The position numbers and the translations under genes were made by a program. From Octopus sinensis (taxonomy: Eukaryota), in NCBI RefSeq assembly GCF_006345805.1, contig NC_043011.1:59532464-59596463 (forward strand): a stretch of DNA of 64,000 nt. The letters are read 5' to 3'. Under the pieces are notes generated by a model, which saw only the letters and a list, made by a program, of their open reading frames with translations, had not been told where the DNA came from and did not search any database. This document shows, in pieces, positions 19,075-43,912 of this stretch (positions within the stretch are counted from its first letter, which is position 1; every line of letters starts with the position of its first letter).

Positions 19075-19940
19075 AGGTGGTAGTGGTAATGGTGGTGCTG
19101 GTGGTGGCGGTGCTAGTGAGAATATTGGTGGTGGTGGTGGTGGTGGTGGTGGTGGCAGCGATGCTAGCGATGATATTGGTGGTGCTGGTGGTGGCGGTGG
19201 TGGCGGTGCTAATGATGATATTGTTGCTGTTGCTGGTGGTGGTGGTGGTGGTGGTATTGGTGATGCTGGTGGCGACGGTGCTAATGATGATATTGGTGGT
19301 ATGGGTGGTGGTGGTGGTTTTGCTACTGGTTGTTGTAGTATCGTTGGTAGTGGGAGTATTGGTTGTTGTCGGGTTGGTGGTGGTGGTGGTGGTGGTGTGG
19401 TACCGTTGGTAGTGGGGGTATTGGTTGTTGTCGAGTTGGTGGTATTGATGGTGGTGGTGGTGGTGGTACCGTTGGTAGTGGGGGTATTGGTTGTTGTCGG
19501 GTTGGTGGTATTGATGGTGGTGGTGGTGGTGGTACCGTTGGTAGTGGGGGTATGGTTGTTGTCGGGTTGGTGGTATTGATGGTGGTGGTGGTGGTGGTAC
19601 CGTTGGTAGTGGGGGTATTGGTTGTTGTCGAGTTGGTGGTATTGATGGTGGTGGTGGTGGTGGTACCGTTGGTAGTGGGGGTATTGGTTGTTGTCGGGTT
19701 GGTGGTATTGATGGTGGTGGTGGTGGTGGTGGTGGTACCGTTGGTAGTGGGGGTATTGGTTGTTGTCGAGTTGGTGGTATTGATGGTGGTGGTGGTGGTG
19801 GTACCGTTGGTAGTGGGGGTATTGGTTGTTGTCGAGTTGGTGGTATTGATGGTGGTGGTGGTGGTGGTACCGTTGGTAGTGGGGGTATTGGTTGTTGTCG
19901 AGTTGGTGGTATTGATGGTGGTGGTGGTGGTGGTGGTGGC
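19075..19940. repeat. (GGT)n-rich tract grading into a 66-bp minisatellite (about 9 copies, 19339-19939)
   Basis: Unit taccgttggtagtgggggtattggttgttgtcgagttggtggtattgat(ggt)n, with starts at 19401, 19467 and onward. Confidence 0.95.
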
Positions 19941-38090: not shown

Positions 38091-39036
38091 CGAGGGGAAG
38101 TAGTCAAAATTATCCGTACTTTGGCCATAGAATATCTTTCTTATTATCACAGTGCCTTTAAGGTGGCGAGATGGCAGAATTGTTAGCACGCTGGACGAAA
38201 TGCTTAGCAGTATTTCGCCCGTCGCTACGTTCTGAGTTCAAATTGCACCGAAGTTGACTTTACCTTTCATCTATTCGGGGTCGATTAAATTGAGTATTGG
38301 GGTTGATGTCATCGACTATCTCCCTCCCCCAAATATCAGGCTTTGTGCCTGTTATAGAAAGGAAAGGATTATCACACTGCCTTCTGTGCACGCGTGCTTG
38401 TTGTTGGTACTATTGTGCTCACGTAATCGAAGTTTGATCTGATCACGCCATTTTTCTTTCTGGCTTTACGGTGTAAGCATGGCCGCTGCACCAGCAGTGT
38501 GCATCAAAGGGGAACATTAATCCGATTTCTCTGGTCGGTAGGTATGTCAGGTGCTGAAATTCATCGGAGGCTGTTCGCACAATACGAGAACAACACACTA
38601 CAGTAGAGTAGATCGAGAACTTTAAAAGTAGCCGGACAAGCGTGACACATGAAGAGGGAGTAGAACGCCTGTCAACCTCCACCACATACGAGAAGATTCT
38701 GCAAGCTCGAGAGATGGCAATGATGACCCGGTTCACCATTGCCATTTCTTGGATCACTGCTCTTTGTTCTTCATTGCTACTGGAGCGGCCACTGCTACTG
38801 TAGCGGTCATTGCTACTGTAGCGGCCACAGTAGCGGCCATTGCTACTGGCGCACATTGCTACTGGAGCGGCCAGGCTCACACCGTAAAGCCAGAACGAAA
38901 AATGGCAAGATCAGGTTCAAATTTCGATCACGTGACCACAATAGTACCGACTATGAACACGCATGCGCTGGAAGCAGTGTGACAATAAAAAAGATATGTT
39001 ATGGCGAAAGTACTGATAATATCTGACTTACCCCTG
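38091..39036. mobile_element. Mariner-derived foldback element made of two head-to-head 5' ends
   Basis: About 190-bp inverted arms ending cgagggg/cccctg-TA; + strand encodes IRFLWSVGMSGAEIHRRLFAQY...FKSSRTSVTHEEGVERLSTST (mariner HTH), - strand encodes EEQRAVI. Confidence 0.85.
38160..38368 (+). mobile_element. Family A SINE inserted in the mariner arm, with target-site duplication
   Basis: TSD ttatcacagtgcctt (38144-38158) and ttatcacactgcctt (38369-38383). Confidence 0.9.
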
Positions 39037-40940: not shown

Positions 40941-41309
40941 CGAGGAAGGATGTAATAAGAGCGAAACGTGTACATGGTTGTCACGATCGTTGTACTTGAA
41001 TGAGTGTCATTGCTTTGAGGTTTTAATATATTTTCTCTAACCGCATGGTTAGTTTCTAGTTTGCTTTTTGATTCTCCCATCATTAAAATATCTTAACACT
41101 AACTTAATGATTAACTTACTTTAACGTGTAGGTTCTTAAATATAAGGGATATACAAGTATTGTATCTTTCCTAATAATATATTGTATCGACTCTGCATAA
41201 GGGAAGGGGGAAATCGAACGTAGCAAGGTGTGAGTCGAGACTGTAGAAGGATGTTTCTGTATTTTGTACGTAAAGCATTTAGTCGTCTCTGCTACCGTTT
41301 CTTCCCCTT

Positions 41310-42230
41310 CATTGCTTCTCTCGATTACTATAATAAAGCTAACACTATTCCACTAAAATCGATGATGAGACTAAAACAACAGCAACAGATTTGAAAATCC
41401 TGAAATTGCTTCGCATTTTCAAATTATTATTTTAGTTAATCGTATTCAGGAAAGCTAGTGTGTCTGAATGCAAGATTAAAACGGCGCTACACTACATCAC
41501 TGGTGCTATAGCAACGCAGACAGTCAATATCGCAAACGGAATATTCCGTGGAGACCTCAGTCGCACCATTAATATTTTCTCTTGCTTTTGGATGCGCTGG
41601 CGTGCTGACCTCCATTAGAAGTGGTTAAAGGATAGGTAAATATATATAAATCATATTCAGTTTATACAGAAATCCTACCAAACTCTATAGTAATTCTGAT
41701 ATACAGTTGGAATACATTTTTTTTCTTCGTAACAAATAAAACAATTTTTTTTTCCAGAGATTTTTGAAAAATGAGAACTACTAAGCTAGCTACAGATTAC
41801 AGAAAAAGAAAGAACAAGTTCAGCTTACAAATATCGATATGTCAGTTAACGGTTAAAACATCGTGCCAAAATGAAAAATAAAGCAAGTCGCAAACTTAAA
41901 CAGATCCTGTGTTTTTGATTGATCCTAAAAGCGTAAAATAAATATGTAAGTTAAGATGAGACTAACCAACAATGTGTACGTGACTTCAGAAACTTATAAC
42001 TTCATTGTAATAATTAGAGGATACATGAGATTCAAGTAGTATGGACACAGCCTAGAAAACAAAACACAAAATTCAATTTAGATCATCTCCAAATGCTGAT
42101 GTGTGCTGCATTTACATATCGATCCAGCAGAGAGACATGTAGCCTACACAGTTTGAGATGAACTCGAACGACCATAAAACATCTGTAATGTATTTATCAG
42201 TCTAGCGAAGATGGGAAACAGTGGTAATCT
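41310..42230 (+). mobile_element. Decayed R4-clade reverse transcriptase
   Basis: DYYNKANTIP (DYKKAFDSVP), VNIANGIFRGDLS-PLIF (GIFQGDSLSPLLF), NHIQFI and PNADVCCIYI (HPKADVDRLYI) occur in the correct order. Confidence 0.7.
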
Positions 42231-42330
42231 TCTTAGAGTGAAGAGATGGTGGATCCTTGAGTGAGGTTAGTGAAGTCATTGCAACACAACAGAGAGGTTA
42301 AACGGAATTAATGCAGCCGGCCCTGTGAAG

Positions 42331-43276
42331 TTGCGACCGATTAATGTTGCATGGAATAAATGTGGCAGATTTTGTATGACTGATGAATGTTGCAGGTTAG
42401 TAAACTTGGTGTATTTAACATTGCAGATTTGTGCACGTTGATGCATTTAATGTTAATGCCTGAAATAGGTTTACTCATTCGAACTTGTAAATGCTGCACA
42501 GTTAATGTTGCATGGTTAAAGCGGTGAATATGGCGCAGTTAATGTTGCATACGTAAAAAGGTACAAGTAGTGCATTTAATATTGCAGATTTAAGACAGTG
42601 ATACAGTGCAGTTAATGTTGCATATTTAAGAAGGTGCATATGATGCAGTTAATACTGCAGCTTTATGAAAGTAGAGGTGATGCAGTTAATTTTGAATAGT
42701 TAAAAAGATGCAGTGATGCAGTACTTAATACTGCACATTAAGGTTGAAGCTGGTGAAGTTAATGTTGCATATAAGGAGGAGGGTTGCAGTTAATGTTGCA
42801 TATTAAGATAATTTCTTTCAGACGATCATGTAAAAATGGTGGACTTAATGTTGCAGATAAGTTGATGGACTTTAGTGCAACTAGTTTCGAGGATTAGTGG
42901 TTGGTGTTGGTTAATTCTGGATAGTTAAAAGAATGAAGCGATGCAAGTGATACAGCGACGTATTGCAGATTAATGTAAAAATAGTGAAATTCTTGCATAC
43001 TCATTATATTTATGGTGCAGTAAATGTTGCATATTTATAACATTAATAATGCTGTTAAATTTGCATGTTTAAGAAGAGTGGTTCTTGGACGATGCGGCCA
43101 ATGTTGCACAAAAATAAAAACTGGTTCAGTCAATCTGCAAAAGTGTTGCAGACAGAAAGCTAAATATTGATGCAGATGATGCTGCACACTATCAACTAGT
43201 GCCGATGCAGTTAATGTTGCAGGTAAATAGGCTCAAATGATTGTTATATTTTTGTGGTTACGTAGTTAATTTTACA
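42331..43276 (+). repeat. Degenerate array of about 25 units, period about 37 bp, conserved core TGCAGTTAATGTTGCA
   Basis: Cores at 42534, 42571, 42607, 42644, 42681, 42717, 42754, 42785, 42840, 43016, 43050, 43093, 43171, 43206 and others. Confidence 0.85.
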
Positions 43277-43912
43277 TATATGCGTGTATATATATATATA
43301 TATATAAAGACTTTTTCTATTCCTGAGCGCTATACTAATACATCTGTTTGTTTTGTACACCACCTCTCTTCGCCTTTTGTTGTGTTTTTTTCGTAAACTC
43401 TCCCAATATAGATATATATATATGGATATATATGTGTGTGTGCGTGCGTGTGTGTGTATGTGTGTGTGTGCGTGCGTATGAATTTATGTGTATATATAAA
43501 AATTAAATCTCCTGCTAGTTAATTCAAGATCCATTGACGACAATACAACCTTCATTTAACTAAGGTATCTTCGCCCAGATGAGTTTAAGTAGTGGATTAC
43601 CCCTCACTGGGTGATTATTACGTCCGAGGTTCTGCTATCCGGGAAACATATATAGCCTGGAATTTACCTGCTCCTTTCCCCCAATTTGCTTTTTTTTACG
43701 CATCCATAGCAAACAAAGATGCTAACTGTGAAATATAAAAGTAACTTTTTCCAGCTCATCGAACTTCAATATGGGAAAATCCTACAACCTTATACGCCAA
43801 TAAACTATTATTGTTCTGAAGGTCGTTCTTTTATGCATACTACTGACTGCTCGAGGCTTACTAACTCCCTACACGTTGATCCTTGGAAATTACAATTATA
43901 TATTATATATAC

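What the first reader, a model, noticed from the sequence alone, without database searches (positions are those of the whole stretch)
42331..43276. Repeat-spacer-like array: about 25 TGCAGTTAATGTTGCA cores at about 37-bp period
Seen: a 16-bp core with palindromic TGCA ends and central TTAAT recurs at 36-37-bp spacing (42534, 42571, 42607, 42644, 42681, 42717, 42754). The roughly 20-nt linkers all differ (tacgtaaaaaggtacaagtag, gatttaagacagtgatacag, tatttaagaaggtgcatatga, gctttatgaaagtagaggtga) yet share a faint TTAA-GGTG consensus. Exact cores persist 600 bp apart (42607, 42785, 43206). Inference: an old minisatellite with selective retention of the core, possibly a homotypic DNA-binding array (homeodomain TAAT or C2H2 zinc finger) or a processed-RNA array. 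No cas-like genes are present.
Basis: partly seen in the sequence, partly recalled or inferred. Interest (0 to 1): 0.7.

Follow-up and report, generated by a model that had tools for sequence, protein, structure and literature searches.

The report
Old minisatellite with slow-changing cores
This is an old, single-copy tandem repeat in an octopus genome whose short repeated core differs from a related species less than half as often as the DNA between cores, so it is likely a cluster of binding sites for a regulatory protein (a known kind of element), though plain decay is almost as likely.

Summary
The array is real: 21 recognisable 16-bp cores on one strand, regular 36-37-bp spacing only in 42497-42754. 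It is a decayed minisatellite (37-bp unit, 110-bp higher-order repeat). The linkers are homologous to each other, not acquired spacers. It is single-copy in G000, shows no family, TE flanks, coding frame, RNA fold or Rfam match. An orthologue about 8% diverged has the same unit number. The whole array is not more conserved than its flank (8.2% vs 6.5%), but within it cores changed less than linkers (7 of 224 vs 33 of 403 sites; P about 0.015 after modelling how cores were picked). That test saw only 40 of 79 differences, cores are not significantly better kept than the adjacent 1 kb, and indels alone can mimic much of the core-linker contrast. Best reading (0.45): a frozen minisatellite whose cores are kept as a homotypic protein-binding cluster, perhaps for an aminergic GPCR gene 44 kb downstream. 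Neutral decay: 0.38. No binding or expression data. Known kind (tandem-repeat motif clusters).

The parts
42336..43276 (+). Decayed minisatellite, 21 recognisable 16-bp cores, C-poor + strand (GC skew 0.36), single copy in G000
42497..42800 (+). Best-kept part: nine cores, 36-37-bp spacing to 42754, 110-bp higher-order repeat; 2 of 144 core sites vs 16 of 160 linker sites differ in organism F (subset chosen after seeing the data)
42856..43015 (+). Degenerate units whose cores are mostly unrecognisable (one at about 42906)
43016..43276 (+). Right third: seven cores, irregular spacing; 42952-43282 differs at 31-39 of 331 sites in organism F, positions not shown by the tool
41305..42324 (.). Single-copy left flank, about 5.2% diverged in organism F (53 of 1020 by subtraction), possibly part of the same constrained region
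43287..43306 (.). (TA)n microsatellite that bounds the array on the right

Best explanation
A single-copy 37-bp minisatellite that has stopped changing in unit number keeps its cores with fewer changes than its linkers, likely because the cores are held by selection as a homotypic cluster of binding sites for one DNA-binding protein, which would act as an enhancer or silencer. Shown: unit structure, 110-bp higher-order repeat, single copy, same unit number in organism F, fewer core than linker changes in the part seen. Inferred: the array arose by local slippage or unequal exchange, froze as units diverged, and was co-opted; the contacted bases are TTAAT and TGCA, perhaps the dyad TTAA-N3-TGCA-N3-TTAA, which would suit a homeodomain/POU-type or zinc-finger protein (motif classes recalled, not tested); the target would most simply be the aminergic GPCR gene 44 kb downstream on the same strand.
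For: Organism F: cores 7 of 224 sites vs linkers 33 of 403 over 42325-42951 (Fisher P 0.008; P 0.013-0.017 in simulations run through the same core-picking; with a hand-set list of 15 cores 9 of 240 vs 31 of 387, P 0.023, and 0.03-0.04 in simulation). Not explained by base or trinucleotide mutability estimated from repeat copies (predicted 1.06 core vs 1.00 linker; P 0.015). Core columns 6-9 and 12-16 show no change in the 14 cores to 42855; the two most variable columns among units (5, 11) hold 3 of the 7 changes. Among units, core-minus-linker identity 0.31 vs 0.18 and 0.23 under uniform decay at indel ratios 0.08 and 0.2 (0 and 6 of 300 reach it). Only two 1-base gaps in 958 bases against F, so ongoing homogenisation is unlikely.
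Against: Only 40 of 79 differences were visible; if 3 hidden ones fell in a core P is 0.051. The unseen right third is 9-12% diverged. The whole array (79 of 958) is no better kept than the left flank (93 of 1424; P 0.12), cores are not significantly better kept than the adjacent 1 kb (P 0.12), and local rates vary twofold within the flank (P 0.002). Counting only changes free of ascertainment gives weak P (4 of 198 sites, 0.03-0.2). At an indel ratio of 0.4 the among-unit contrast is ordinary (72 of 300). Two other arrays in 864 kb show a contrast of 0.29. The TTAAT-N2-TGCA spacing is not enriched elsewhere (12 vs 8-19 at other spacings). One species comparison only; several units have lost the core; no binding, chromatin or expression data; the link to the GPCR is proximity alone.
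Confidence: 0.45

Rival explanations
1. Neutral decayed minisatellite. The 'core' is the stretch on which diverged units still line up; indels put the rest out of register, and the lower between-species rate is a chance dip in a small sample.
For: Array no better kept than flank; rate varies twofold locally; indel-rich decay reproduces most of the contrast; similar core-and-linker look at window 7990-8440 and at L158; no family; motif spacing not enriched.
Against: The core-linker difference was the test named in advance and gives P about 0.015 under neutral simulations with the same picking, not removed by context correction; observed indel ratio against F is low (2 gaps per 79 substitutions).
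Confidence: 0.38
2. The cores are kept as RNA-level sites (RNA-binding protein or branch-point-like words) in an intron or non-coding transcript that crosses the array.
For: Strictly one-stranded motif; 16 AYUAAY words on the minus strand vs 1.35 expected, 3 UGCAUG on plus vs 0.43 (motifs recalled; the counts follow from the repeat itself). The GPCR has a splice-acceptor-like site upstream of its start codon, so a long 5' intron is possible.
Against: No structure (z -0.18 and -1.21), no Rfam match. The variable two bases in mid-core break any contiguous 7-8-base miRNA-type site. 37-bp spacing is too short for a microexon array.
Confidence: 0.1
3. Cores stayed alike because they served as junctions for exchange between units (conserved boxes, as proposed for nematode satellites), with no regulatory role.
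For: Spacing varies in the linkers while cores persist; higher-order repeat; precedent PMC3694981 (abstract).
Against: No unit gain or loss against organism F, cores differ from their consensus by about 17% (42 of 240 sites), so exchange has stopped and cannot explain the recent rate difference.
Confidence: 0.05
4. Relic of a repeat-coding exon (12-residue units).
For: 36-bp spacing is a multiple of three; short Cys- or Ala/Val/Asn-rich readings recur.
Against: Stops in all six frames, most spacings 37; longest ORFs 65 aa without Pfam match; 1-base gaps against F.
Confidence: 0.02

Closest known systems
Tandem-repeat homotypic motif clusters acting as enhancers (MORC3-repressed IFNB1 element; PMC13373173, abstract and section 12 read)
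   Same: Single-locus tandem repeat with tens of copies of one short motif; there the motif cluster is kept across mammals while unit size and consensus vary.
   Different: Those repeats vary in copy number and have shown binding and activity; this array is frozen, heavily decayed, and has no known factor or assay.
gypsy insulator, 12 Su(Hw) sites in 340 bp with variable AT-rich spacers (PMC2374998, passages read)
   Same: Architecture of kept cores and variable spacers at similar density; 2 units match the 12-bp gypsy consensus exactly (42616, 43025; background 0.012 per kb).
   Different: Only 2 of 21 units match; the best-kept word TTAAT is outside that consensus; no retrotransposon around it; Su(Hw) is arthropod-restricted (recalled).
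Satellite DNA with conserved boxes and higher-order repeats (Meloidogyne; PMC3694981, abstract read)
   Same: Diverged monomers, kept short motifs, higher-order repeat.
   Different: One locus of under 1 kb, no satellite library, no sign of present shuffling.
Helentron/MITE-borne dispersed tandem arrays of molluscs (PMC7492417, abstract read)
   Same: Short dispersed array beside a microsatellite in a mollusc.
   Different: Array and left flank are single-copy; no shared flanking modules found.
CRISPR repeat-spacer arrays
   Same: Superficial: repeats with differing intervening DNA.
   Different: Repeat of 16 bases and degenerate, linkers homologous to each other, no cas genes, animal chromosome.

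Membership tests
Minisatellite (decayed) | Head-to-tail units of 10-60 bp with homology along the whole unit | tested here: met
   Self-match at lags 37, 73, 110, 147; TRF periods 36 and 73 at 76-77%
Minisatellite (active VNTR) | Copy number changes between lineages | tested here: not met
   Two 1-base gaps only against organism F; one against organism D over 42325-43225; individuals not tested
Tandem-repeat homotypic motif cluster | Many copies of one short motif in a repeat | tested here: met
   21 cores in 940 bp
Tandem-repeat homotypic motif cluster | Motif kept better than the rest of the unit between species | tested here: inconclusive
   7 of 224 vs 33 of 403, P 0.008-0.05 by treatment; 40 of 79 differences seen
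Tandem-repeat homotypic motif cluster | Bound by a factor, with enhancer or silencer activity | not testable with these tools
gypsy/Su(Hw) insulator | Most units match the 12-bp Su(Hw) consensus | tested here: not met
   2 exact matches among 21 units (consensus)
gypsy/Su(Hw) insulator | Lies in an LTR retrotransposon; host has Su(Hw) | tested here: not met
   Array and flank single-copy, no Pfam domain in window; Su(Hw) presence not searched
Helentron/MITE central repeat | Multi-copy conserved flanking modules | tested here: not met
   a very old element could be missed, and the DNA search scores few candidates
CRISPR array | Near-identical repeats with unrelated spacers | tested here: not met
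CRISPR array | cas genes nearby | tested here: not met
Structured or processed RNA array | Stable repeated fold or known RNA family | tested here: not met
   z -0.18 and -1.21 for 42490-42810; 0 Rfam matches

The most novel reading that the evidence does not exclude
A minisatellite was co-opted in octopods as a 20-site array for a dimeric factor that reads TTAA-N3-TGCA-N3-TTAA, forming a lineage-specific long-range enhancer or insulator of an aminergic receptor gene; the second core-and-linker array at 7990-8440 would be another such element of the same locus, and fossil minisatellites would be an overlooked source of octopus neural regulatory DNA that can be found by core-versus-linker rates.
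Probability: 0.12. Interest if true: 0.65.

Novelty: new member of a known kind. Interest (0 to 1): 0.3.

Why it matters
If the constraint is real, it is a clean natural motif experiment: about 20 copies show which bases matter, and it offers a candidate regulatory element for a neuromodulator receptor in an animal whose enhancers are barely mapped. The kind of element is known from mammals and flies. If neutral, it shows that decayed minisatellites can mimic repeat-spacer arrays.

Tried and rejected
Family search: the exact core has 8 sites in G000, 3 here, the other 5 isolated. A looser dimer gave 15 matches, 6 here and 9 at 7 other loci; none has the 37-bp unit. A 16-bp array on C24 and a 15-bp array on C9 share a word with the core, but no flanks with this locus, and dimers of that word are not enriched (52 vs 57 control): treated as likely chance. 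The read-backwards controls contain CpG and are weak. Expression: no RNA holder listed; one 175-base contig of a run only guessed to be RNA covers 42745-42919; neither is used as evidence. Helical phasing: 36.75 bp is 3.5 turns, but the other spacings do not fit; dropped without a formal test. Microexon array (lead from earlier notes): spacing too short, no AG-GT-R-AG sites. Weak Pfam hits below gathering score (4, 1, the latter overlapping the array start) ignored. Literature: the core 11-mer occurs in 15 papers, 13 listed, none about this by title (listing only); searches on octopus minisatellites and satellites and on degenerate-repeat exaptation listed nothing on such an array; PMC13652810 (passages) has no mention of tandem repeats or satellites in its main text, supplements not seen. 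PMC1935007 (passages) gave no POU site that matches the core.

Full report
Observation. The window is G000:C15:59532464-59596463 in a 2.72-Gb animal genome; a protein encoded nearby carries Octopus labels in public sources. Fourteen of 16 window matches to the 16-bp core (up to 3 mismatches) fall in 42497-43221, all on the plus strand, against 0.95 expected. Spacing is 36-37 only from 42497 to 42754; elsewhere 31-55, with a degenerate gap at 42856-43015. TRF sees only 42535-42739.

Anatomy. The linkers are diverged copies, not acquired spacers: the best self-match lag is 110 bp (71 of 100 bases), then 73, 37, 147. The array thus grew from a 37-bp unit through a three-unit higher-order repeat. 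The best-kept bases are TTAAT and the following TGCA; with the linker's TTAA they form a dyad TTAA-N3-TGCA-N3-TTAA, met with at most one mismatch in 8 of 22 units. All six frames hold stops; neither strand folds better than shuffles; no Rfam match.

Copy number. The array and its left flank each match only themselves (the search scores few candidates). The exact core has 8 sites, the 5 others isolated; a tight dimer pattern hits only here. Two shorter-unit minisatellites (C24, C9) share a word with the core but not flanks, and that word's dimers are not enriched.

Context. None of 280 non-repeat ORFs of the window reaches a Pfam gathering score. In 100 kb on each side I scanned the 150 longest of 389 non-repeat ORFs: hits were transposase or reverse-transcriptase fragments and one uninterrupted 7TM ORF at L015:3746-5077, closest in the PDB to 5-HT1A and alpha-2 adrenergic receptors, named 'probable G-protein coupled receptor No18'. 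It starts about 44.5 kb downstream of the array on the same strand, with an acceptor-like site about 780 bases before the start codon. Small exons of other genes could have been missed.

Between species. Twenty runs of 11 studies hold all or part of the stretch. In organism F one contig spans 40901-43282 with 172-176 other letters and 49 gap letters (two runs); over the array, 79 other letters and two 1-base gaps in 958. So unit number is fixed. The array as a whole (8.2%) is not better kept than the left flank (93 of 1424, 6.5%; P 0.12), and the flank's halves differ (40 of 404, 53 of 1020; P 0.002) (counts by subtraction). The tool listed 40 of the 79 differences, those up to 42951. With cores picked by script, 7 of 224 core sites and 33 of 403 linker sites differ (Fisher one-sided 0.008). 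Neutral simulations passed through the same picking give P 0.013-0.017 (300 runs at each of three indel ratios). With my hand-set list, which adds a poor core at 42906, the counts are 9 of 240 and 31 of 387 (P 0.023; 0.03-0.04). The nine central cores give 2 of 144 vs 16 of 160 (P 0.001), but that subset was chosen after seeing the data. Trinucleotide mutability from 3613 repeat alignments does not favour the core. Against this: up to 8 differences are missing from the tool's tally, and 3 of them in a core would give P 0.051; cores vs the adjacent 1 kb give P 0.12; the unseen right third is 9-12% diverged; core sites that match the consensus changed 4 of 198 times, P 0.03-0.2 by assumed rate. 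Organism E shares the 7 listed changes in 42456-42665 with F, so it is no independent branch.

Among units. Core-minus-linker identity is 0.31. Substitution-only decay gives 0.07-0.09, which overstates the case; with indels and identical picking the null is 0.18, 0.23, 0.28 at indel ratios 0.08, 0.2, 0.4, reached in 0, 6, 72 of 300 runs. A seed-based survey of 864 kb found 10 candidate arrays; this one ranks first (0.31), two others reach 0.29, one of them in this window at 7990-8440, not alignable to it (score 27 vs 35 +/- 5). The look of core and linker is therefore not unique.

Mechanism. Shown: a frozen, single-copy, hierarchical minisatellite with fewer core than linker changes in the part seen. 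Inferred: selection keeps the cores as a homotypic binding cluster (0.45). The split pattern of kept bases (two short words with free bases between) suits a DNA-binding protein better than an RNA seed; the factor is unknown, and the spacing TTAAT-N2-TGCA is not enriched elsewhere. Neutral decay stays close (0.38); RNA-level sites 0.10; exchange boxes 0.05; coding relic 0.02.

Known systems. It would work like tandem-repeat motif clusters (PMC13373173, abstract and section 12) and is built like the gypsy insulator (PMC2374998, passages), of which it is no member (2 of 21 units match, no retroelement). Conserved boxes in satellites (PMC3694981, abstract) and Helentron-borne arrays (PMC7492417, abstract) are the other comparisons; the second fails on flanks. 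It is not CRISPR-like. Searches listed no description of this array; the library lacks most subscription papers.

Verdict. Real, ordinary in kind, with a modest and testable sign of constraint. Interest 0.3.

Noticed in passing
window 7990-8440: Second, more decayed core-and-linker array, about 30-bp spacing, same C-poor plus strand (GC skew 0.49); not alignable to the main array.
   Followed up: partly
L015:3746-5077 (+): Uninterrupted aminergic GPCR ORF (5-HT1/alpha-2-like), 44 kb downstream; acceptor-like site at about L015:2970 suggests a 5' UTR intron.
   Followed up: partly
window 38368-38986: Element with 70-73-base terminal inverted repeats and internal 18-bp tandem repeats, MITE-like.
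   Followed up: no
window 19076-19939: Young 66-bp tandem repeat (94% matches) inside a GGT-rich tract with long open frames on both strands.
   Followed up: no
L063:4461-4806 and L062:4387-4940: 16-bp and 15-bp minisatellites that share a word with the core; the second is old and has a 218-bp duplication. Likely chance.
   Followed up: partly
window 41305-42324: Single-copy kilobase with lower divergence (5.2%) than its left neighbour (9.9%) in organism F; possible conserved non-coding element.
   Followed up: partly
L022:300-1280 (+): 327-aa ORF with a sub-threshold DUF4371 hit, probably a hAT-type transposase piece (family link recalled).
   Followed up: no
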